From sequence record OP434518: a stretch of DNA of 44,850 bases, one strand, 5' to 3'. The position numbers and the translations under genes were made by a program. The DNA comes from Escherichia phage phi458. The notes under the pieces are model-generated. The model saw only the letters and a program-made list of their open reading frames with translations, did not search any database and was not told the origin of the DNA. Positions 9,856 to 30,699 of the stretch are shown in pieces; the stretch's first letter is position 1; every line of letters starts with the position of its first letter.

Positions 9856-10515
9856 TCACCCAAACGTCTCTTCTGGCCACTGGCTGGCGATAACTTTCCC
9901 TACAACGGAACAGCTATCATTGCATGGGATCATTGGATATTGCGGGTTTAGTGGTTGTAGGAACACCTGACCGCTATCCCTGATCAGTTTCTTGAAGGTA
10001 AACTCGTCACCACCAAGTCTGGCTATGCAGAAATCACCTGGCTCAACAGCCTGCTCAGGGTCAACGAGAATTAACATCCCGTCAGGAAAGCTTGGCTTGG
10101 ATCCTGTTGGTGCGGTCATGGAATTACCTTCAACTTCAAGCCAAAACGCACAATCACTGGCTTTTTTGGTTGTGCTGACCCATCTCTCCGCATCACCTTT
10201 GGTAAAGGTTCTAAGCTCAGGCGAGAACATCCCGGCCTGAACATGAGAAAAAACAGGGTACTCATATTGTTTTTTAACGGGGGCAGATGAGTATTCGCCA
10301 ACAGGTGAAAATGTACCGTCGTGGTTGAATGAGACGTTATCAATACCAAGGTATTTAAACACCACACCAATCTCGTCAAGAGATGGATGACGAGATCCGC
10401 GCAACCAGTGACCAATTCCACCCTGCGTCATACCAAGCTCTTCAGCCAACTTCTCTTGAGTTATGCCGAGCTCTTTCATTCTGGATCTAGCCAGTTCATA
10501 CCATTTCATTTTCAT
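9856..10515 (-). CDS. cI: CI-type repressor (novel HTH N-domain, lambda-type LexA-like C-domain)
   Basis: C-terminal ~130 aa from [15 protein letters not shown] to the end match lambda CI as recalled; N-terminal [25 protein letters not shown] is different. Start chosen at MKMKWYEL; the ORF extends to 10590. Confidence 0.85.
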
Positions 10516-14032: not shown

Positions 14033-14636
14033 ACCAGCGCGAAGACGATGTAAAAACGATGAATGTCGGGAATGGTTTCACCCTGCATTCGCCAATCAGT
14101 GGTGGTGCTCTCCAGAGTGTGGAACCAAGATAGCACTCGAACGACGAAGCAAAGAACGCGAAAAAGCGGAAAAGGCAGCAGAGAAGAAACGACGACGAGA
14201 GGAGCAGAAACAGAAAGATAAACTTAAGATTCGAAAACTCGCCTTAAAGCCCCGCAGTTACTGGATTAAACAAGCCCAACAAGCCGTAAATGCCTTCATC
14301 AGAGAAAGAGACCGCGACTTACCATGTATCTCGTGCGGAACGCTCACGTCTGCTCAGTGGGATGCCGGGCATTACCGGACAACTGCTGCGGCGCCTCAAC
14401 TCCGATTTGATGAACGCAATATTCACAAGCAATGCGTGGTGTGCAACCAGCACAAAAGCGGAAATCTCGTTCCGTATCGCGTCGAACTGATTAACCGCAT
14501 CGGGCAGGAAGCAGTAGACGAAATCGAATCAAACCATAACCGCCATCGCTGGACTGTCGAAGAGTGCAGGGCCATCAAGGCGGAGTATCAACAGAAACTT
14601 AAAAAACTGCGAAACAGCAGAAGTGAGGCTGCATGA
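14025..14636 (+). CDS. ninG: NinG (Rap-like recombination endonuclease)
   Basis: 203 aa matching lambda NinG. Confidence 0.9.
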
Positions 14637-20968: not shown

Positions 20969-22476
20969 TGGCAATTCTTGATGATGTGATTGGCGTTTTT
21001 TCACCTGGATGGAAAGCGGCAAGGCTGCGTTCCCGTGCGGTGATCCAGGCTTATGAAGCCGTAAAAACGACGCGGACACACAAAGCCCGACGGGAGAACC
21101 GAACTGCCGACCAGCTAAGCCAGTACGGGGCCGTGTCGTTACGTGAGCAGGCCCGTTACCTTGATAACAACCACGATCTGGTTATTGGTGTATTTGACAA
21201 GCTGGAAGAACGGGTGGTGGGGAAAAACGGGATTATTGTCGAGCCACATCCGGTATTACGCAATGGGGCCATTGCCCGTGATCTGGCAGCGGAGATTCGC
21301 ACCCGATGGAGTGAATGGTCTGTCAGCCCGGAAGTCACCGGGCAGTTTACCCGTCCGATGCTGGAACGTCTGATGCTGCGTACCTGGCTGCGCGATGGTG
21401 AGGTGTTTGTCCAGATGGTTTCCGGGCGCATAAACAGCCTGACGCCTTCTGCCGGTGTTCATTTCTGGCTGGAGGCGCTCGAGCCAGACTTTATTCCCAT
21501 GACCAGTGATGAGAGCAACAGGCTGAATCAGGGCGTGTTTGTTGATGACTGGGGGCGTCCCGAAAAATATCTGGTGTATAAAAGCCGTCCCGTATCCGGA
21601 CGGCAGATGGAAACCAAAGAAGTGGATGCAGAGCGAATGCTGCATCTTAAATTTGTTCGCCGTCTGCACCAGATGCGCGGGACGTCTTTGTTGTCCGGTG
21701 TGCTGATCCGCCTCAGTGCCCTGAAAGATTATGAAGATTATGAGCTGACTGCAGCAAGGATCGCCGCTGCTCTGGGGATGTACATCCGCAAAGGCGACGG
21801 GCAGAGCTATGAACCGGATGGTAATGGCAGCAAGGATAAGGAACGCGAGCTTACCATTCAGCCAGGCATTATTTACGACGATCTGAAACCCGGCGAAGAA
21901 ATCGGAATGGTGAAGTCGGATCGCCCCAATCCTAACCTTGAAACTTTTCGTAATGGTCAGTTGCGTGCCGTGGCGGCGGGCAGTCGTCTGAGTTTTTCCA
22001 GTACAGCGCGCAACTATAACGGCACTTACAGCGCCCAGCGTCAGGAGCTGGTTGAATCTACTGATGGCTACCTGATCCTGCAGGACTGGTTTATTGGTGC
22101 CGTCACCCGCCCGATGTATCGTGCATGGCTGAAACAGGCTGTGGCATCCGGTGTTATCAGGCTACCCCGCGATCTTGACCGTTCTTCACTGTATACCGCG
22201 GTGTATTCCGGACCAGTGATGCCGTGGATTGACCCTGTTAAGGAGGCTGAGGCCTGGAAAATCCAGATTCGTGGTGGAGCGGCGACAGAATCAGACTGGG
22301 TACGTGCAGGTGGTCGTAATCCGGATGATGTCAAACGTCGGCGCAAGGCCGAAATTGATGAAAACCGCAAGCTGGATCTGGTATTTGATACCGATCCGGC
22401 CAGTGATAAAGGAGGCAGCAGTGCCGCAACGAAACGACAGGAGCCGCAGCACACCGACGACCAGTCCGAAGAATAA
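20968..22476 (+). CDS. Portal protein (start at ATG overlapping the W stop)
   Basis: About 500 aa between terminase and head protease; the ORF-track 5' extension from 20896 overlaps W and is rejected. Confidence 0.8.
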   Translation: MAILDDVIGVFSPGWKAARLRSRAVIQAYEAVKTTRTHKARRENRTADQLSQYGAVSLREQARYLDNNHDLVIGVFDKLEERVVGKNGIIVEPHPVLRNGAIARDLAAEIRTRWSEWSVSPEVTGQFTRPMLERLMLRTWLRDGEVFVQMVSGRINSLTPSAGVHFWLEALEPDFIPMTSDESNRLNQGVFVDDWGRPEKYLVYKSRPVSGRQMETKEVDAERMLHLKFVRRLHQMRGTSLLSGVLIRLSALKDYEDYELTAARIAAALGMYIRKGDGQSYEPDGNGSKDKERELTIQPGIIYDDLKPGEEIGMVKSDRPNPNLETFRNGQLRAVAAGSRLSFSSTARNYNGTYSAQRQELVESTDGYLILQDWFIGAVTRPMYRAWLKQAVASGVIRLPRDLDRSSLYTAVYSGPVMPWIDPVKEAEAWKIQIRGGAATESDWVRAGGRNPDDVKRRRKAEIDENRKLDLVFDTDPASDKGGSSAATKRQEPQHTDDQSEE

Positions 22477-24448
22477 TTCCTGGTTCAGGATGCAGGCTGG
22501 TCACCAGAGTGACGCGGATATTTATATTTATGACGAGATTGGTTTCTGGGGTGTTACAGCGAAGCAGTTTATCAGTGATCTGAATGCACTGGGCGATATC
22601 ACCCACATTAATCTCCATATTAATTCACCGGGTGGCGATGTCTTTGAAGGCATCGCCATTTTTAATGCGCTGAAAACACATGGTGCGTCCATTACCGTTT
22701 ATGTCGACGGTGTGGCGGCGTCAATGGCGTCGGTCATTGCGATGGTGGGAAACCCGGTCATTATGCCGGAAAACACCTTCATGATGATTCATAAACCATT
22801 TGGCTTTACGGGCGGTGATGCGGAGGACATGCGCACCTATGCCGACCTGCTCGATAAGGTTGAGGCGGTTCTGTTACCCGCTTATGCACAGAAAACCGGG
22901 AAAACCACCGATGAAATTGCTGCCATGCTGGCGGATGAGACCTGGATGTCCGGTGCCGAATGTCTGGCACAGGGATTTGCTGATCAGGTGACGCCAGCCG
23001 TTAAGGCAATGGCATGTATTCAGTCAAAACGTACAGAGGAATTTAAAAAGATGCCGGAATCCATTCGAAACATGATTACTCCGCCACGCAACAGTGCTCC
23101 ACGCGTACAGGATGATGAACCTGCAGCCTCCCGGACGCCAGTGCAGGCAGCAGCACCCGTGGTGGATGAAAACAGTATCCGTGCGCAGGTACTGGCAGAG
23201 CAAAAAGCGCGTGTAAACGGTATTAATGATCTGTTTGCCATGTTTGGCGGGCGTTATCAGACGCTGCAGGCTCAGTGTCTTGCCGATCCTGAATGTTCGC
23301 TGGAGCAGGCCCGCGAAAAGCTGTTGAACGAGATGGGGCGCGAGTCCACGCCATCCAATAAAAATACCCCGGCTCATATTTATGCCGGAAACGGTAATTT
23401 TGTGGGGGACGGGATCCGCCAGGCGCTGATGGCGCGTGCCGGATTTGAAAAAACCGAACGTGATAATGTCTACAACGGGATGACCCTGCGTGAATATGCC
23501 CGTATGTCACTGACTGAACGGGGTATTGGGGTTTCCAGTTATAACCCGATGCAGATGGTCGGTGCGGCGTTCACACACAGTACGTCTGACTTCGGTAATA
23601 TTCTGCTGGATGTTGCGAACAAAGCCATTCTGCAGGGCTGGGAAGATGCCCCTGAAACCTATGAACAGTGGACGCGGAAAGGTCAGTTGTCTGATTTTAA
23701 AATTGCCCATCGTGTGGGTATGGGGGGCTTCAGTGCTCTGCGTCAGGTGCGTGAAGGGGCGGAATATAAATACGTCACCACCGGAGATAAACAGGCCACT
23801 ATTGCACTGGCGACCTATGGCGAGCTGTTCAGTATCACCCGTCAGGCCATTATCAATGATGATCTGAATATGCTGACCGATGTCCCGATGAAACTGGGCC
23901 GTGCGGCGAAATCCACTATTGCCGATCTGGTTTATGCCATTCTGACGTCTAACCCGAAAATCTCCACAGATAATGTAAGTCTGTTCGATAAAGCGAAACA
24001 TGCAAACGTACTGGAGAGCGCTGCAATGGACGTGGCATCGCTGGATAAAGCCCGCCAGTTGATGCGCGTTCAGAAAGAGGGGGAGCGTCATCTGAATATT
24101 CGTCCTGCGTTCGTACTGGTACCGACGGCGATGGAGTCTGTTGCTAACCAGGTCATTCGCTCCTCAAGTGTCAAGGGGGCTGACATTAACGCCGGTATTA
24201 TTAACCCGGTGAAAGATTTTGCGACCGTTATTGCAGAGCCTCGTCTTGATGATAACAGCCAGACCACCTTCTACCTGGCTGCGTCAAAAGGCTCCGATAC
24301 GATTGAAGTGGCTTATCTCAACGGTGTGGATACGCCATATATTGATCAGATGGAGGGCTTCAGTGTGGATGGCGTGACAACGAAAGTGCGTATTGACGCC
24401 GGTGTCGCGCCAGTTGATCACCGCGGTCTGGTGAAATGTACGGCGTAA
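22421..24448 (+). CDS. Fused ClpP-family prohead protease / scaffold-like linker / HK97-fold major capsid protein
   Basis: Single uninterrupted frame; GTG at 22421 preceded by AAAGGAGG; N-terminal protease region (IYIYDEIGFWGV...INSPGGDVFEGIAIFNALK...MASVIAMVG); coiled linker; C-terminal ~330-aa capsid-like domain. Confidence 0.7.
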   Translation: MPQRNDRSRSTPTTSPKNNSWFRMQAGHQSDADIYIYDEIGFWGVTAKQFISDLNALGDITHINLHINSPGGDVFEGIAIFNALKTHGASITVYVDGVAASMASVIAMVGNPVIMPENTFMMIHKPFGFTGGDAEDMRTYADLLDKVEAVLLPAYAQKTGKTTDEIAAMLADETWMSGAECLAQGFADQVTPAVKAMACIQSKRTEEFKKMPESIRNMITPPRNSAPRVQDDEPAASRTPVQAAAPVVDENSIRAQVLAEQKARVNGINDLFAMFGGRYQTLQAQCLADPECSLEQAREKLLNEMGRESTPSNKNTPAHIYAGNGNFVGDGIRQALMARAGFEKTERDNVYNGMTLREYARMSLTERGIGVSSYNPMQMVGAAFTHSTSDFGNILLDVANKAILQGWEDAPETYEQWTRKGQLSDFKIAHRVGMGGFSALRQVREGAEYKYVTTGDKQATIALATYGELFSITRQAIINDDLNMLTDVPMKLGRAAKSTIADLVYAILTSNPKISTDNVSLFDKAKHANVLESAAMDVASLDKARQLMRVQKEGERHLNIRPAFVLVPTAMESVANQVIRSSSVKGADINAGIINPVKDFATVIAEPRLDDNSQTTFYLAASKGSDTIEVAYLNGVDTPYIDQMEGFSVDGVTTKVRIDAGVAPVDHRGLVKCTA

Positions 24449-26114: not shown

Positions 26115-26124
26115 GGAGGTGGTA

Positions 26125-26868
26125 ATGACCACACCAAATCCACTGGCAAAAACGAAAGGTGCGGGAACGACGTTCTGGATGTATACCGGCAAGGGCGATG
26201 CGTTTGCGAACCCTTTATCGGACACTGACTGGCTGCGTCTTGCGATGGTGAAGGATCTGCAACCTGGCGAAATGACCGCTGATGCAGAAGATGACACTTA
26301 TCTCGATGATGAAGATGCAGACTGGAAAACGACAACCCAGGGGCAGAAATCAGTCGGTGATACTTCGGCGACGCTGGCCTGGCGTCCGGGGGACAGCGGG
26401 CAGAAAAAACTGGTTCAGTTGTTCGACTCCGGTGAAGTCTGCGCTTTTCGTATCAAATATCCCAACGGTACTGTTGATGTTTTCCGTGGCTGGCTGAGTT
26501 CACTGGGTAAAACCATTGCCTCAAAAGACGTGATGACCCGCACAGTGAAAATCAGCGGTGTGGGGCGTCCGTATCTGGCAGAGGAAGGCACTGAAATCGT
26601 GGGCGTTACCGGGCTGACGGTGGCACCGGCATCTGCCAGTGTAAAAGTGGGAGCAACCACCACGCTGACCTTTACAGTAAAACCTGACGGAGCCAGTGAC
26701 AAAGCGATCAGTGTGCATTCGACAGATCCACAGACTGCCACGGTGACCCTGAACGGGCTTGTGGCCACGGTGAAAGGCGTGAAGCAGGGCAGTGTCAGCA
26801 TTGTGGGCATGACTTCTGACGGCGATTTTGTGGCAGTGGCTACGGTGGCTGTCAGCGCCGCAGGTTAA
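26125..26868 (+). CDS. V: Major tail protein V
   Basis: MTTPNPLAKTKGAGTTFWMYTG... closely resembles lambda V; strong AAGGAGGTGG RBS; terminator follows. Confidence 0.9.
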   Translation: MTTPNPLAKTKGAGTTFWMYTGKGDAFANPLSDTDWLRLAMVKDLQPGEMTADAEDDTYLDDEDADWKTTTQGQKSVGDTSATLAWRPGDSGQKKLVQLFDSGEVCAFRIKYPNGTVDVFRGWLSSLGKTIASKDVMTRTVKISGVGRPYLAEEGTEIVGVTGLTVAPASASVKVGATTTLTFTVKPDGASDKAISVHSTDPQTATVTLNGLVATVKGVKQGSVSIVGMTSDGDFVAVATVAVSAAG

Positions 26869-26889
26869 CAGGACGATACTCATCATTTG

Positions 26890-26913
26890 CCCCGGTTATC
26901 CGGGGCTTTTTTG
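26890..26913 (+). terminator. Intrinsic terminator after V
   Basis: CCCCGG-ttat-CCGGGG followed by CTTTTTT. Confidence 0.6.
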
Positions 26914-26925
26914 CAGGTGGAGAAC

Positions 26926-27315
26926 ATGATGTTTCTGAAACAGGGCACGTTTAATTATGAAAAGCAGTCCGTGGTGCTCAGTGAGCTGTCCGGGCTGCAG
27001 AGAATTGAATATCTGGCGTTTGTTCAGCAGCGAACGGCAAAGTTTGATGCCGAAGAGGGAGAACTGCCGGAGGCTGAACGACAGATTGCTTTTCTACGGA
27101 TGGGGATGGATATCAATGCCTGGCTGGTTTCCCGCTCACTGTGGAATGCGGAACAGTCTCAGGATGTTGAGACGCTTTGCGCATCCGTTATTACAACATG
27201 GTCGTATGATGCCCTGGGAGCGGGGGCGGAGATGGTTCTGTCGCTGAGCGGTATGGGAGCCATTGAGAATGCCGGGGATTTGGAGCATGAGGTGCTGACG
27301 CCGGAAAAGTCCTGA
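26926..27315 (+). CDS. G: Tail assembly chaperone G
   Basis: MMFLKQGTFNYEKQSVVLSELSGLQRIEYLAF... resembles lambda G; ATG start chosen over the track's TTG. Confidence 0.85.
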   Translation: MMFLKQGTFNYEKQSVVLSELSGLQRIEYLAFVQQRTAKFDAEEGELPEAERQIAFLRMGMDINAWLVSRSLWNAEQSQDVETLCASVITTWSYDALGAGAEMVLSLSGMGAIENAGDLEHEVLTPEKS

Positions 27316-27653
27316 CGCGGGAAATGCAGTTTGTCATGCGGCTTGCCCGGGAGTTCAGGCGGGCAGACTGGCGGCGGATGCTGTCGGAAATGTCGGCCAC
27401 TGAGCTTGGTGAGTGGGGCGATTATTTCCGGATGCAGAGCTTCAGTGATGTGTGGATGGATGCGCAGTTTGCCTCGCTGAAGGCATTGATCGTGAGAATG
27501 GTGTCCGGCAGCAGTGATGCTGCGGTGGCTGATTTCAGCCTTTTACCGGAAGAGAACGGGATACCGGAGCGAACGGACGAAGAACTGATGCATCTTGGGG
27601 AAGGTATTTCCGGAGGTGTGCGTTATGGACCAGATAGCCAACCTGGTCATTGA
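27303..27653 (+). CDS. T: T portion of the G-T tail assembly chaperone, reached by -1 programmed frameshift
   Basis: The -1 frame is open from the G 3' end; slip-prone GGAAAAG at 27303-27309 just before the G stop; product continues ...REMQFVMRLAREF. Confidence 0.7.
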   Translation, partial: GKVLTREMQFVMRLAREFRRADWRRMLSEMSATELGEWGDYFRMQSFSDVWMDAQFASLKALIVRMVSGSSDAAVADFSLLPEENGIPERTDEELMHLGEGISGGVRYGPDSQPGH

Positions 27654-30600
27654 TTTGGGGATTGATGCGGCAGAGTTTAAAAATGAAATTCCCCGTATCA
27701 AAAACCTTCTGAATGGTGCAGCCAGCGATGCAGAACGGTCTTCTGCCCGTATGCAGCGTTTTATGGAGCGTCAGACTCAGGCCGCCCGGCAGACAACGCA
27801 GGCGGCTTCTTCGGCTGCAACAGCCGCATCCGTCCATGCGCAGACGGTGGAGAAGAACGCACAGGCTCATGAACGCATGGCCCGCGAGGTGGAGAAAACC
27901 CGCCAGCGCATGGAGGCGCTGAGCCAGAAAATGCGCGAGGAACAGGCGCAGGCCATGGCTCTGGCGGAGGCTCAGGATAAAGCGGCTGCTGCGTTTTATC
28001 GTCAGATTGACAGTGTGAAACAGGCCAGTGCGGGGCTGCAGGAATTACAGCGTATTCAGCAGCAGATCCGACAGGCCAGAAACAGTGGCGGGATTGGTCA
28101 GCAGGATTATCTGGCGCTGATTTCTGAGGTTACTGCGAAAACCCGTGTTCTTACACAGGCTGAGGAAGAGGCTACCCGACAGAAAGTGGCGTTTATCCGT
28201 CAGCTTAAAGAGCAGGCAACCCGCCAGAATCTTTCATCTTCTGAGTTGCTTCGTGCCAAGGCAGCCCAGCTGGGGGTAAGCAGTGCTGCAGAAGTGTATA
28301 TCCGCAAAATGGAGCAGGCAGGAAAAGCCACGCATTCGCTGGGTCTGAAAAGTGCAGCAGCCCGCCAGGAGATAGGCGTTCTGATAGGTGAACTGGCCCG
28401 CGGCAATTTAGGGGCGCTGAGGGGATCCGGGATAACGCTGGCTAACCGTGCCGGATGGATAGACACACTGATGTCACCGAAAGGCATGATGCTTGGCGGG
28501 GTTATTGGCGGTATTGCCGCGGCCGTCTATGGTCTAGGTAAAGCCTGGTATGACGGTCAGAAGGAGGGGGAAGAATTTAACCGCCAGTTGTCGCTGACGG
28601 GGCATTATGCCGGAGTCACTGCCGGGCAGCTGTGGACGCTCAGTCGTGCTATTTCCGGGAATGGTATCACGCAACATGCTGCAGCCGGTGCGTTGGCGCA
28701 GGTGGTGGGGAGTGGTGCATTTCGTGGAAACGATATCGGTATGGTGGCGAGAGCTGCCGCACAGATGGAGCGATCGGTTGGCCAGTCGGTCAGCGATACC
28801 ATAAATCAGTTTAAGCGGCTGAAGGATGATCCTGTAAATGCCGCGAAGGCTCTGGACAATGAGCTGCATTTTCTTACTGCCACTCAGCTTGAGCAGATAC
28901 GTGTCCTTGGGGATCAGGGACGGTCCAGTGATGCTGCACGGATAGCCATGTCTGCACTGGCAGAGGAAACCGGTCGGCGTACTGCGGATATTGATAATAA
29001 CCTCAATGCGCTTGGCAGTACGCTGAAGTATCTGTCTGATTTGTGGAGTCGTTTCTGGGATGCGGCCATGAATATTGGTCGTGAAGACTCGCTGGATGAA
29101 CAGATTACCGCTTTACAGGAGAAAGTGTCGCGGGCGAAAAGACTCCCCTGGACGGCATCATCTTCTCAGGTTGAATACGATCAGCAGCGTCTTAACGATC
29201 TTCAGGAGAAAAAACGCCAGAAGGATTTGCAGGATGCAAAAGAGCAGGCAGAGCGGAATTATCAGGAGCAACAGAAACGACGTAATGCTGAAAATGCTGC
29301 ACTGAACCGGATGAATGAAACGGAAGCAGCACGACATCAGCGTGAAATTGCGCGTATTAATGCCATGCAGTACGCCGACCAGGCTGTCAGGGATGCGGCG
29401 ATACAACGTGAAAATGAACGTTACGAGAAAGCCCTGGCATCCGGTAAGAAAAAAACACGCGAAACCCGTAATGATGAGGCCACCCGGTTATTGCTGCAGT
29501 ACAGTCAGCAACAGGCACAGGTGGAAGGACAGATTGCTGCTGCAAGACAGTCAGCAGGCATTGCCACTGAAAAGATGACAGAAGCGCATAAACAGCTTCT
29601 GGCTCTGCAGCAGCGCATCAGCGATCTGGACGGGAAAAAACTGACGGCAGATGAAAAGAGTGTGCTGGCCCGTAAAGATGAACTGATTCAGGCACTGACG
29701 CTGCTGGATGTAAAACAGCAGGAGCTTCAGAAACAAACGGCACTCAACGATCTGAAGAAAAAAACAATTCAGCTGACCAGTCAACTGGCTGAAGAAGAGC
29801 GCGCTCAGCGTCAGCAACATGACCTGGATATCGCCACGGTGGGTATGGGTGATCAGCAGCGGCAGCGATATCAGGTACAACTGAGTCTTCGCCAGAAATA
29901 CCAGCAACAGCTGGAGCAGTTGAGGCGGGATAGTGAGCAGAAAGGGACATATAACACGGATGACTACAGAAAGGCCGAGCAGGCGCTGACGGAGAGCCTG
30001 AACCGACAACTGAATGAGAATCGCCGTTACTGGCAACAGCTTGAAGTTGTGCAGGGTAACTGGAAAAACGGTGCCATGCGTGCATTTCAGGATTTTACCG
30101 TGGATGCAGACAATACGGCAGGCACTGCTGAGCAGATGCTTACAGCGGCATTTAACAGTGCAGGTAATGCACTGGCAACCTTCTGTACCACCGGAAAACT
30201 GAACTTCAAATCTTTTACCGCCTCGCTCCTTTCTGATCTGGCAAAAATCATGGCCCAGATGTCCATGATGCAGGCAGTTAAGGGGATTGGTTCGGCGTTT
30301 GGCTGGGGGAGTGCAGCAACTGCCAGTGTGACGCCCAATGCTGATGGTGGTGTTTATCAGTCTGCTGATTTGAGTCGTTACAGTGGCACGGTGGTTAACC
30401 GTCCGACGTTTTTTGCTTTTGCAAAAGGTGCAGGTGTGATGGGGGAAGCTGGGCCTGAAGCCATTCTGCCTCTGCGTCGTGGTGCTGACGGTAAGCTGGG
30501 GGTTGTGGCGGATATTGGTGGTTCAGGTATGGCGATGTTTGCCCCGCAGTACAACATTGAGATCAATAACGATGGCACGAACGGGCAGATAGGTCCGGCT

Positions 30601-30699
30601 GCCCTGAAGGTGGTTTATGACCTCGGGAAAAAAGCAGCAGCGGACTTTATGCAACAGCAGTCCCGTGATGGTGGTCTGTTCTCCGGAGGTGGACGATGA
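27625..30699 (+). CDS. H: Tail tape measure protein H
   Basis: About 1000 aa, coiled-coil rich; N- and C-termini (INNDGTNGQIGPAALKVVYDL...DGGLFSGGGR) resemble lambda H. Confidence 0.9.
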   Translation: MDQIANLVIDLGIDAAEFKNEIPRIKNLLNGAASDAERSSARMQRFMERQTQAARQTTQAASSAATAASVHAQTVEKNAQAHERMAREVEKTRQRMEALSQKMREEQAQAMALAEAQDKAAAAFYRQIDSVKQASAGLQELQRIQQQIRQARNSGGIGQQDYLALISEVTAKTRVLTQAEEEATRQKVAFIRQLKEQATRQNLSSSELLRAKAAQLGVSSAAEVYIRKMEQAGKATHSLGLKSAAARQEIGVLIGELARGNLGALRGSGITLANRAGWIDTLMSPKGMMLGGVIGGIAAAVYGLGKAWYDGQKEGEEFNRQLSLTGHYAGVTAGQLWTLSRAISGNGITQHAAAGALAQVVGSGAFRGNDIGMVARAAAQMERSVGQSVSDTINQFKRLKDDPVNAAKALDNELHFLTATQLEQIRVLGDQGRSSDAARIAMSALAEETGRRTADIDNNLNALGSTLKYLSDLWSRFWDAAMNIGREDSLDEQITALQEKVSRAKRLPWTASSSQVEYDQQRLNDLQEKKRQKDLQDAKEQAERNYQEQQKRRNAENAALNRMNETEAARHQREIARINAMQYADQAVRDAAIQRENERYEKALASGKKKTRETRNDEATRLLLQYSQQQAQVEGQIAAARQSAGIATEKMTEAHKQLLALQQRISDLDGKKLTADEKSVLARKDELIQALTLLDVKQQELQKQTALNDLKKKTIQLTSQLAEEERAQRQQHDLDIATVGMGDQQRQRYQVQLSLRQKYQQQLEQLRRDSEQKGTYNTDDYRKAEQALTESLNRQLNENRRYWQQLEVVQGNWKNGAMRAFQDFTVDADNTAGTAEQMLTAAFNSAGNALATFCTTGKLNFKSFTASLLSDLAKIMAQMSMMQAVKGIGSAFGWGSAATASVTPNADGGVYQSADLSRYSGTVVNRPTFFAFAKGAGVMGEAGPEAILPLRRGADGKLGVVADIGGSGMAMFAPQYNIEINNDGTNGQIGPAALKVVYDLGKKAAADFMQQQSRDGGLFSGGGR

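What the first reader, a model, noticed from the sequence alone, without database searches (positions are those of the whole stretch)
27300..27330. G-T tail chaperone -1 frameshift with a non-canonical slippery site
The T frame is open in the -1 frame across the end of G, as in lambda, but the only slip-prone motif before the G stop is GGAAAAG (27303-27309), not the canonical GGGAAAG as I recall it. This would be a natural variant of the conserved frameshift site.
Basis: partly seen in the sequence, partly recalled or inferred. Interest (0 to 1): 0.4.

Follow-up and report, generated by a model that had tools for sequence, protein, structure and literature searches.

The report
Lambda-type G-T tail chaperone frameshift site
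This is the usual ribosomal frameshift that makes a phage's G-T tail-assembly protein; its GGAAAAG slip site differs by one base from phage lambda's, but it is the commonest version in this gene family and is already marked as such in phage N15, so it is ordinary.

Summary
G (26926-27315) ends ACG CCG GAA AAG TCC TGA. The lambda-T-like frame is open in -1 only from 27291. G_GAA_AAG (27303-27309) is the only codon pair in that 25-nt overlap where the A-site tRNA can re-pair.

The interpretation also holds. The heptamer aligns without gaps to lambda's G_GGA_AAG.

It is neither rare nor new:
- Among 30 G-T clusters (80% aa identity or less) from Enterobacterales genomes and phages, 23 use G_GAA_AAG and 3 use lambda's site.
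- All 85 members of the window's cluster carry it. That cluster includes the phages Ayreon, mEp460 and cdtI.
- The window's G-T DNA matches 1846 of 5426 complete E. coli genomes.
- The N15 GenBank record marks the same heptamer as the "slippery sequence for -1 translational frameshift".

The codon before GAA varies (Ala, Pro, Leu, Val) but always ends in G. This argues for two-tRNA slippage: tRNA-Glu GAA->GGA with a middle G:U pair, and tRNA-Lys AAG->AAA.

No supported 3' structure was found in this clade. An SD-like GAGGTG, whose GAGG core ends 10 nt upstream, is a possible stimulator.

RefSeq annotates T as a separate gene. That is an annotation gap, not biology.

Interest is low.

The parts
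26926..27315 (+). Gene G, tail assembly chaperone. Two adjacent ATGs at 26926 and 26929; 129 or 128 aa; stop TGA at 27313-27315.
   Evidence: Translation. TIGR01674 phage_lambda_G 5.7e-56, 188 bits against a cut-off of 74. PF06894 7.8e-39. RefSeq annotates the 100%-identical copy as gpG.
27303..27309 (+). Slippery heptamer G_GAA_AAG (0-frame Glu-Lys; -1 frame GGA AAA).
   Evidence: It is the positional homologue of lambda G_GGA_AAG. It is invariant in 85/85 members of the window's cluster and present in 23/30 family clusters. The same heptamer is annotated as the slippery sequence in N15.
27291..27315 (+). G/T overlap: the only stretch where a -1 shift can join G to T. The -1 frame is closed by TGA at 27288-27290.
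   Evidence: frame translations; one search shows the same in relatives.
27309..27653 (+). T segment read in the -1 frame after the slip. First codon GTC at 27309-27311, stop TGA at 27651-27653. The predicted G-T fusion is join(26926..27309,27309..27653), 242 aa, with junction ...LTPEK|VLTREMQF...
   Evidence: TIGR01715 phage_lam_T 2.3e-39, 134 bits against a cut-off of 77. The 12-residue distance from the heptamer to the conserved LAREF motif is kept in 27 of the 30 cluster representatives; for the other 3 (L017, L019, L030) the script stopped at an earlier A-R-E, so the distance was not shown.
27289..27294 (+). SD-like GAGGTG, complementary to the 16S anti-SD CACCUC. The GAGG core ends 10 nt before the heptamer. 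Possible 5' stimulator (inferred).
   Evidence: SD-like 4-mers lie 9-12 nt upstream in the five stop+1 lineages checked: the window's cluster, Citrobacter L016, Gifsy-1 and Gifsy-2, and Fels-1 read by eye. Family-wide it is 10/30 clusters against 10.8% of background windows. Published spacing for -1 shifts is 9-14 nt (PMC5009743).
27313..27315 (+). G stop codon, one codon after the heptamer (AAG_TCC_TGA). Conserved as YCC_TGA in the mEp460/Gifsy/Fels/Citrobacter clade.
   Evidence: Elsewhere in the family the stop lies 0, 1 or 5 codons after the heptamer, so this proximity is not universal.
27324..27326 (+). The ATG that RefSeq and GenBank use as an independent start for T. It is not conserved in the family.
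   Evidence: annotation. In one search, 18/30 clusters have no ATG between the heptamer and LAREF, and 16/30 have no ATG, GTG or TTG.
27625..30699 (+). Tape measure gene (lambda H-like). Its start overlaps the end of T.
   Evidence: PF06791, PF09718 and PF24622; annotation in relatives.
26122..26868 (+). Major tail tube gene (lambda V-like, with a C-terminal Big_2 domain), immediately upstream.
   Evidence: PF16461 1.5e-66 and PF02368.

Best explanation
This is the programmed -1 ribosomal frameshift that makes the G-T tail assembly chaperone of a lambda-like tail. The phage is a mEp460/cdtI/Ayreon-type lambdoid prophage of E. coli.

Most ribosomes translate G to its stop at 27313-27315. A minority slip back one base on G_GAA_AAG (27303-27309). 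The slip occurs with tRNA-Glu on GAA in the P site and tRNA-Lys on AAG in the A site. tRNA-Lys re-pairs perfectly with AAA. tRNA-Glu (anticodon 3'-CUU*-5') re-pairs with GGA through G:C, a middle G:U wobble, and A:U. Translation then continues with GTC CTG ACG... to give a 242-aa fusion with junction ...TPEK-VLTRE...

By analogy with lambda, the G part binds the tape measure protein and the T part recruits the tail tube protein. The low shift frequency sets the G:GT ratio.

Shown here: the ORF geometry, the homology, the positional equivalence to lambda's site, and nucleotide-level selection on all three diagnostic bases of the heptamer.

Inferred: that slippage involves two tRNAs, that the upstream GAGGTG helps, and the efficiency, which has not been measured.
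For: 1. Geometry. The -1 frame is open only from 27291, and the heptamer is the only site in the overlap that can re-pair.

2. Homology. TIGR01674 and TIGR01715 equivalog hits are above cut-off. Gene order is Z-U-V-G-T-H-M.

3. Junction. The junction aligns with lambda without gaps. The T-frame peptide (V/A)(L/F)xxE(L/M/R)xF..LAREF starts at the first -1 codon, at a fixed 12-residue distance in 27 of the 30 cluster representatives (not shown for the other 3). 18/30 clusters have no ATG before LAREF.

4. Conservation. CCGGAAAAG(T/C)CCTGA is identical in Gifsy-1, Gifsy-2 and Fels-1 at 67-70% overall nucleotide identity. 23 of 30 clusters at 80% aa identity or less use G_GAA_AAG, and 85/85 members of the window's cluster do.

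5. Codon choice. In those 23 clusters the preceding codon is GCG, CCG, CTG, GTG or TTG. The amino acid changes but the third base is always G (background G3 38%). Glu is always GAA (background 56%) and Lys is always AAG (background 37%).

6. Viable phages. Phages isolated and sequenced as phages carry it: Ayreon on K-12, mEp460 and cdtI. It is not decay in a dead prophage.

7. Prior annotation. The N15 record annotates GGAAAAG as 'slippery sequence for -1 translational frameshift'. The Gifsy records name T as made by translational frameshifting.

8. Literature. A_AAG is by far the best -1 tetramer in E. coli (PMC4066793). NNA_AAG hexamers and 'intermediate' G_GA-type heptamers are recognised (PMC5009743). 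The tRNA-Glu GAA->GGA re-pairing through G:U is invoked for the mycobacteriophage GGGGGAA sites (PMC10885494).
Against: - There is no direct protein or reporter evidence for this heptamer in anything I could read.
- Xu et al. 2004 and Licznar et al. 2003, the papers most likely to hold it, are not in the library.
- The heptamer fails the strict X_XXY_YYZ rule.
- Without a stimulator, the A_AAG tetramer alone is near background in E. coli, about 0.15%.
- No supported downstream structure exists in this clade: z = -1.28, and the covariation term is unfavourable.
- The same in-phase heptamer occurs four more times in long ORFs of the window, so it is not strongly avoided and may be only weakly slippery by itself.
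- The conservation p-values ignore shared ancestry.
Confidence: 0.88

Rival explanations
1. The same -1 frameshift, but by single-tRNA slippage. Only tRNA-Lys moves from AAG to AAA (the A_AAG tetramer or GAA_AAG hexamer mechanism). The P-site tRNA-Glu does not re-pair, and heptamer base 1 is irrelevant.
For: A_AAG is the most shift-prone tetramer in E. coli, and NNA_AAG hexamers are used naturally: B. subtilis cdd incidentally and IS1222 productively. GAA->GGA re-pairing needs a mid-codon G:U. Two family clusters use G_GCA_AAA, where the P-site tRNA cannot re-pair.
Against: Heptamer base 1 is G in 23/23 clusters. It sits at a largely four-fold degenerate third position, and the encoded residue changes among Ala, Pro, Leu and Val. 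Nothing else explains that, because the -1 frame is not translated upstream of the slip. Every variant except A_AAA_AAG (G_GGA_AAG, G_GGA_AAA, G_GCA_AAA) also starts with G.
Confidence: 0.2
2. There is no frameshift. T is made on its own from ATG 27324, as annotated in RefSeq and in the mEp460 and cdtI records.
For: PGAP and GenBank annotate a separate 109-aa CDS from that ATG. A G-rich stretch (GGG, 27319-27321) precedes it.
Against: That ATG exists only in the window's cluster and one other. 18/30 clusters have no ATG, and 16/30 have no ATG, GTG or TTG, between the heptamer and the conserved LAREF motif. The T-frame peptide is nevertheless conserved from the first codon after the heptamer. 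The GGG is only 2 nt from the ATG, which is too close for a normal SD. In lambda, T is known only as the G-T fusion (Levin et al. 1993, as summarised in PMC5009743).
Confidence: 0.04
3. RNA polymerase slippage on the A4 run deletes or adds a base in a fraction of transcripts. The frame change is transcriptional, not ribosomal.
For: The site contains a homopolymer run. Transcriptional slippage is used by some phage and bacterial genes (PMC5009743).
Against: The run is only four A's, whereas (from my own knowledge) productive slippage needs much longer runs. The strict codon phasing and the selected flanking G and G fit tRNA re-pairing, not polymerase slippage.
Confidence: 0.02
4. GGAAAAG is a decayed lambda-type GGGAAAG in a defective prophage, and no functional G-T is made.
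For: It is one transition away from lambda's site. The window is 100% identical over the G-T segment to a chromosomal prophage copy.
Against: It is invariant in 85/85 close relatives. It is present in phages isolated as phages (Ayreon, mEp460, cdtI, phi80, N15) and in 23/30 divergent clusters.
Confidence: 0.01

Closest known systems
Phage lambda G / G-T tail assembly chaperone -1 frameshift (Levin, Hendrix & Casjens 1993; Xu, Hendrix & Duda 2004, 2013, 2014)
   Same: Homologous G and T (equivalog HMMs). Same gene order, V-G-T-H. Same -1 direction. Same position of the shift site in a gap-free alignment. Same A-site codon, AAG->AAA.
   Different: Heptamer base 3 is A instead of G, so the P-site codon is GAA (Glu) rather than GGA (Gly), and its -1 re-pairing has a middle G:U instead of being fully cognate. 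The G stop lies 1 codon after the site instead of 5. T is shorter (about 113 against about 139 aa after the G stop). The fusion is 35% identical to lambda's.
Phage N15 gene 14/15 (GenBank NC_001901; misc_feature 10027..10033 'slippery sequence for -1 translational frameshift')
   Same: Identical heptamer GGAAAAG at the homologous position of a homologous G-T pair. phi80, mEp213, Kp4865-4 and PSTCR8lys also share it.
   Different: 36% aa identity. The N15-type genes have their stop 5 codons downstream. They also have a long-range stem starting 8 nt after the heptamer, which the window's clade largely lacks.
NNA_AAG hexanucleotide and A_AAG tetranucleotide -1 shift sites of E. coli and IS elements (Licznar et al. 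2003; Sharma et al. 2014)
   Same: The same A-site event: the single E. coli tRNA-Lys moves from AAG to AAA. The 5' codon ends in A.
   Different: Here the base before the hexamer is under selection (always G). This points to added P-site re-pairing, i.e. an 'intermediate' heptamer. The IS examples rely on strong pseudoknots or hairpins, and none is supported here.
G_GAN_NNN 'intermediate' heptamers of eukaryotic RNA viruses (insect-specific flaviviruses, dianthoviruses, umbraviruses such as PEMV G_GAU_UUU_UGG_UAG, mesoniviruses; PMC5009743 section 31)
   Same: X_XX is G_GA rather than three identical bases. In PEMV a 0-frame stop one codon after the site matters, the same spacing as AAG_TCC_TGA here.
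   Different: Eukaryotic ribosomes, a UUU A-site and strong 3' structures. No homology. A role for the stop codon here is untested, and the spacing is not universal in the family.
E. coli dnaX -1 frameshift (A_AAA_AAG with an SD-like element 10 nt upstream and a 3' stem-loop)
   Same: AAG A-site codon. An SD-like sequence at the spacing that stimulates -1 shifts (GAGG ends 10 nt upstream).
   Different: dnaX shifts about 50% of ribosomes and needs its 3' stem-loop. Here no 3' structure is supported, and a shift of a few percent is expected by analogy with lambda.

Membership tests
Lambda-type G/G-T tail assembly chaperone pair with programmed -1 frameshift | Sequence homology of both parts to lambda G and lambda T | tested here: met
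   TIGR01674 188 bits (cut-off 74) and TIGR01715 134 bits (cut-off 77), both equivalog models. PF06894 and PF06223.
Lambda-type G/G-T tail assembly chaperone pair with programmed -1 frameshift | Two overlapping ORFs lying between the major tail (tube) gene and the tape measure gene | tested here: met
   V-like 26122-26868, G 26926-27315, T frame to 27653, H-like 27625-30699.
Lambda-type G/G-T tail assembly chaperone pair with programmed -1 frameshift | The downstream ORF is in the -1 frame, overlaps the end of G, and lacks a conserved start of its own | tested here: met
   The -1 frame is open from 27291. 18/30 family clusters have no ATG before the conserved LAREF motif.
Lambda-type G/G-T tail assembly chaperone pair with programmed -1 frameshift | A conserved slippery sequence inside the overlap | tested here: met
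   G_GAA_AAG at 27303-27309. Invariant in the cluster (85/85), present in 23/30 clusters, with synonymous-site selection.
Lambda-type G/G-T tail assembly chaperone pair with programmed -1 frameshift | A G-T fusion protein is made at a low fixed ratio to G and is needed for tail assembly | not testable with these tools
   Needs a western blot, mass spectrometry or a reporter assay, plus phage genetics.
Canonical X_XXY_YYZ simultaneous-slippage heptamer | Bases 1-3 identical and bases 4-6 identical, so that both tRNAs keep their non-wobble pairs in the -1 frame | tested here: not met
   Bases 1-3 are G, G, A. tRNA-Glu would need a middle-position G:U on GGA. It works like this class but belongs to the recognised 'intermediate' heptamers (PMC5009743).
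NNA_AAG hexanucleotide / A_AAG tetranucleotide -1 sites | A 0-frame AAG preceded by A, decoded by the single mnm5s2U tRNA-Lys of E. coli | tested here: met
   GAA_AAG in phase. The host is E. coli. The tRNA repertoire is established knowledge and was not tested here.
NNA_AAG hexanucleotide / A_AAG tetranucleotide -1 sites | Bases 5' of the hexamer are not needed for re-pairing | tested here: not met
   The base before GAA is G in 23/23 clusters despite amino-acid changes in that codon.
SD-stimulated bacterial -1 frameshift signals (dnaX / IS911 type) | An SD-like sequence 9-14 nt 5' of the shift site | tested here: inconclusive
   GAGGTG is present at 27289-27294. SD-like 4-mers are enriched family-wide (10/30 against 10.8%, naive p about 8e-4) and are present in the five lineages of the window's stop+1 clade that were checked. 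The region is rich in Glu and Asp codons, and function is untested.
SD-stimulated bacterial -1 frameshift signals (dnaX / IS911 type) | A stable 3' stem-loop or pseudoknot 5-9 nt after the site | tested here: not met
   Window fold z = -1.28. The clade consensus fold is -18.5 kcal/mol with a covariation term of +1.5. No Rfam hit.

The most novel reading that the evidence does not exclude
G_GAA_AAG, not lambda's textbook G_GGA_AAG, is the majority and perhaps ancestral shift site of the lambda G-T family in Enterobacterales. It works by two-tRNA slippage in which tRNA-Glu tolerates a mid-codon G:U. Its efficiency has never been reported in the open literature I could search. Lineages such as this one, which lack the 3' stem found in the N15/phi80/lambda subgroup, may compensate with an SD-like element 10 nt upstream and a 0-frame stop one codon downstream. 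If so, this clade would be a compact natural test bed for how P-site mismatch, SD pairing and an adjacent stop codon together set a frameshift ratio of a few percent.
Probability: 0.25. Interest if true: 0.3.

Novelty: already known. Interest (0 to 1): 0.15.

Why it matters
The biological stakes are small. The G-T frameshift and this heptamer are already recognised, as the N15 annotation shows.

The practical point is annotation. RefSeq/PGAP and several phage records split T off as an independent gene from a non-conserved ATG. The RefSeq record inspected does so, the other listed hits carry the same separate gene labels, and the window's G-T DNA matches 1846 of 5426 complete E. coli genomes. 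Frameshift predictors built on strict XXXYYYZ logic will miss the majority site of this family.

The comparative result that heptamer base 1 is under selection is a tidy in-silico argument for two-tRNA slippage with a G:U-mismatched P-site tRNA. It is incremental.

Tried and rejected
1. Literature. Searches for 'GGAAAAG' or 'GAA AAG' with frameshift and phage found nothing relevant. So did a search for N15 gene 14. Xu et al. 2004 and Licznar et al. 2003 are not held. I therefore could not check whether they list or measure this heptamer, and in particular where GAA falls among the NNA_AAG classes.

2. 3' stimulator in the window. RNAfold of 27310-27400 gives z = -1.28. RNAalifold over the mEp460, Citrobacter, Gifsy and Fels clade gives no covariation support. 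Rfam at E<=1 gives only a spurious lncRNA hit. Rejected.

3. The homologue of the N15/lambda long-range stem. In the window only about 4 of 7 pairs can form, counted by hand from the alignment. Not conserved here.

4. Alternative shift sites in the 25-nt overlap. None has A-site re-pairing.

5. Avoidance of the heptamer elsewhere as a sign of strong slipperiness. Not seen: in-phase copies lie at 14168, 15390, 33548 and 35348 in long ORFs.

6. The idea that the site is a recent mutation of GGGAAAG. Rejected by conservation.

7. The adjacent stop codon as a family-wide feature. Rejected: the stop lies 0, 1 or 5 codons after the site in different clusters.

Full report
**Observation.**
- G runs from ATG 26926 or 26929 to TGA 27313-27315 and ends ...GAG GTG CTG ACG CCG GAA AAG TCC TGA.
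- The -1 frame has a stop at 27288-27290. It is then open to 27651-27653.
- A -1 shift can therefore join the two frames only within 27291-27315.
- In that 25-nt overlap, the only 0-frame codon whose tRNA can re-pair one base back is AAG (27307-27309, to AAA).
- The codon before it, GAA, can re-pair to GGA only through a middle G:U.
- GGAAAAG at 27303-27309, phased G_GAA_AAG, is therefore the only candidate.
- Lambda's own site reads G_GGA_AAG.
- The bare heptamer is common in the window: 15 copies against 6.6 expected. Its in-phase presence in the one short overlap has a chance probability of about 1e-3 by my estimate, and the comparative data below make chance irrelevant.

**What the genes are.**
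- The predicted fusion hits the NCBIfam equivalog models for lambda G (TIGR01674, 5.7e-56) and lambda T (TIGR01715, 2.3e-39), both well above cut-off. It also hits Pfam PF06894 and PF06223.
- The flanking genes are lambda-like Z, U and V (tube protein with a Big_2 domain) upstream, and tape measure and M downstream.
- The G-T segment (26880-27660) is 97-99.5% identical to phages Ayreon, mEp460 and cdtI and 100% identical to a chromosomal copy in E. coli AR435.
- The same G-T DNA matches 1846 of 5426 complete E. coli genomes, nearly all at 95% identity or more.

**Positional homology with lambda.** The G-T fusions of the window, Gifsy-1, Fels-1, Gifsy-2 and lambda align without gaps across the junction: lambda ...SAGK|VFDGELSF against window ...TPEK|VLTREMQF. 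The heptamers occupy the same columns and differ only at base 3 (G in lambda, A here).

**Conservation.**
- Gifsy-1, Gifsy-2 and Fels-1 are only 67-70% identical to the window at the nucleotide level. All three keep CCGGAAAAG(T/C)CCTGA exactly while the flanks diverge.
- I surveyed one genome per species, IMG/VR contigs and GenBank phages. This gave 145 G-T loci, which fall into 30 clusters at 80% aa identity or less.
- Shift sites by cluster: 23 G_GAA_AAG, 3 G_GGA_AAG (the lambda type), 1 G_GGA_AAA, 2 G_GCA_AAA and 1 A_AAA_AAG.
- All 85 members of the window's own cluster have GGAAAAG.
- The 'non-canonical' site is therefore the majority form of this family in Enterobacterales. It occurs in Citrobacter, Kluyvera, Kosakonia, Enterobacter, Phytobacter, Pluralibacter, Providencia, Sodalis and others.

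**Prior knowledge.**
- The GenBank record of phage N15 carries a misc_feature at 10027..10033 labelled 'slippery sequence for -1 translational frameshift'. That sequence is GGAAAAG, at the homologous position of gene 14/15.
- phi80, mEp213, Klebsiella phage Kp4865-4 and Providencia phage PSTCR8lys share the heptamer.
- The Gifsy-1 and Gifsy-2 records describe T as made by translational frameshifting.
- RefSeq/PGAP and the mEp460 and cdtI records annotate T as a separate CDS from ATG 27324; the Ayreon record also gives it a separate CDS, from a later start. That ATG exists only in this cluster and one other.
- 18 of 30 clusters have no ATG, and 16 have no ATG, GTG or TTG, between the heptamer and the conserved LAREF motif. 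The T-frame peptide is nevertheless conserved from the very first -1 codon, at a fixed 12-residue distance in 27 of the 30 cluster representatives; for L017, L019 and L030 the script stopped at an earlier A-R-E, so the distance was not shown.
- Independent initiation of T is therefore not credible.

**Mechanism.**
- In the 23 G_GAA_AAG clusters, the codon before GAA is GCG (9), CCG (8), CTG (4), GTG (1) or TTG (1). The amino acid varies but the third base is always G.
- The background frequency of G at such sites in these genes is 38%. Glu is always GAA (background 56%) and Lys is always AAG (background 37%).
- The naive probabilities (3e-10, 2e-6 and 1e-10) overstate significance because the lineages are related. 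The repeated amino-acid replacement with G retained is still hard to explain otherwise, since the -1 frame is not translated upstream of the slip.
- A selected G at heptamer base 1 is what P-site tRNA-Glu needs to re-pair on GGA (G:C, G:U, A:U).
- I therefore favour two-tRNA slippage over a pure A_AAG or hexanucleotide mechanism.
- This agrees with published rules. A_AAG is the best -1 tetramer in E. coli, but alone it is near background (PMC4066793). NNA_AAG hexamers and 'intermediate' heptamers with X_XX = G_GA are recognised (PMC5009743). The same GAA->GGA re-pairing through G:U is proposed for the abundant mycobacteriophage GGGGGAA sites, and by its name the 'twofour' motif class used by PRFect would cover GGAAAA (PMC10885494).

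**Stimulators.**
- I found no supported 3' structure in the window's clade. The fold z-score is -1.28. The consensus fold of six clade members has a positive, that is unfavourable, covariation term. There is no Rfam match.
- Upstream, GAGGTG (27289-27294) is a perfect 6-nt complement of the anti-SD. Its GAGG core ends 10 nt before the heptamer, and the published window for -1 stimulation is 9-14 nt (PMC5009743).
- SD-like 4-mers lie 9-12 nt upstream in the five lineages of the mEp460/Citrobacter/Gifsy/Fels clade that I checked, across changing amino acids. Family-wide they are present in 10 of 30 clusters against 10.8% of control windows (naive p about 8e-4).
- This is suggestive only, because the region is rich in Glu and Asp codons.
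- The G stop lies one codon after the heptamer in this clade. That recalls the PEMV G_GAU_UUU_UGG_UAG case. Elsewhere in the family the stop is 0 or 5 codons away, so it is not a general requirement.
- In-phase G_GAA_AAG also occurs at 14168, 15390, 33548 and 35348 inside long ORFs. The bare heptamer is therefore probably only weakly slippery, consistent with a shift of a few percent like lambda's.

**Verdict.** The finding is ordinary: a known recoding event, at a heptamer already annotated in N15, which is the commonest site in its family. What remains unmeasured is its efficiency, and whether the SD-like element and the adjacent stop contribute.

Noticed in passing
window 26889-26912 (+): A strong intrinsic-terminator-like hairpin, GCCCCGGTTATCCGGGGC followed by TTTTTT, lies between the tail tube gene V and G. 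It is annotated as a terminator in the Ayreon and mEp460 records, and N15 has one at the same place. It would lower transcription of G, T and H relative to V, adding a transcriptional layer to the V:G:GT stoichiometry.
   Followed up: partly
L158 (N15) 599-703 and 16 other loci; alignment A3 columns 15-22 paired with 78-85: In the N15/phi80/lambda subgroup, a long-range stem (CCAGYGAGC ... GCTKGCTGG) starts 8 nt after the heptamer and encloses about 55 nt. It is 93% paired across 17 clusters. One pair covaries between A-U and G-C in 6 sequences (2/500 shuffles reach this), and single-sequence folds give z of about -2 to -4 in most of them. It may be a 3' stimulator. Part of it is forced by conserved E-L and M-L codons. 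The window's clade largely lacks it.
   Followed up: partly
window 27324-27653; RefSeq copy L008 845-1174: RefSeq/PGAP annotates T as a free-standing 109-aa CDS from a non-conserved ATG, with no ribosomal-slippage join. The one RefSeq record inspected shows this, and the other listed hits carry the same separate G and T labels. The window's G-T DNA matches 1846 of 5426 complete E. coli genomes. GenBank records for mEp460, cdtI and Ayreon also give T a separate CDS.
   Followed up: yes
window 14168, 15390, 33548, 35348 (+): Four more in-phase G_GAA_AAG heptamers lie inside long open frames, two of them in the 1184-aa tail fibre/J-like ORF. The motif is not avoided in coding sequence. I did not check whether any gives a meaningful -1 product.
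   Followed up: no
window 22328-24448 (+): A single ORF fuses a ClpP-type prohead protease domain (PF00574, 4.4e-36) to a major capsid domain (PF25209, 1.2e-54). A cement/decoration-type protein follows (PF09956).
   Followed up: partly
L049-L055, L057-L061, L068-L072 (genome-contig hits): Short contigs, several with coverage near 1 in their names, carry G-T sequence at lambda's level of identity to the query (38%), with the lambda overlap sequence wherever it could be read. They sit in assemblies of unrelated organisms: Kitasatospora, Pseudomonas, Shewanella, Neobacillus, Chromatium, Enterococcus, Leeuwenhoekiella and others. This is almost certainly lambda DNA contamination of those assemblies.
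   Followed up: no
L017 and L019 (Kluyvera, Ewingella) about 996-1002; L047 (Providencia rustigianii) 975-981: Minor family variants have the 0-frame stop immediately after the site: CTG_GCA_AAA_TAG (G_GCA_AAA, where the P-site tRNA-Ala cannot re-pair) and ATG_GGA_AAA_TAG (G_GGA_AAA). A_AAA is a weak tetramer in E. coli, so these may depend on the adjacent stop codon.
   Followed up: no
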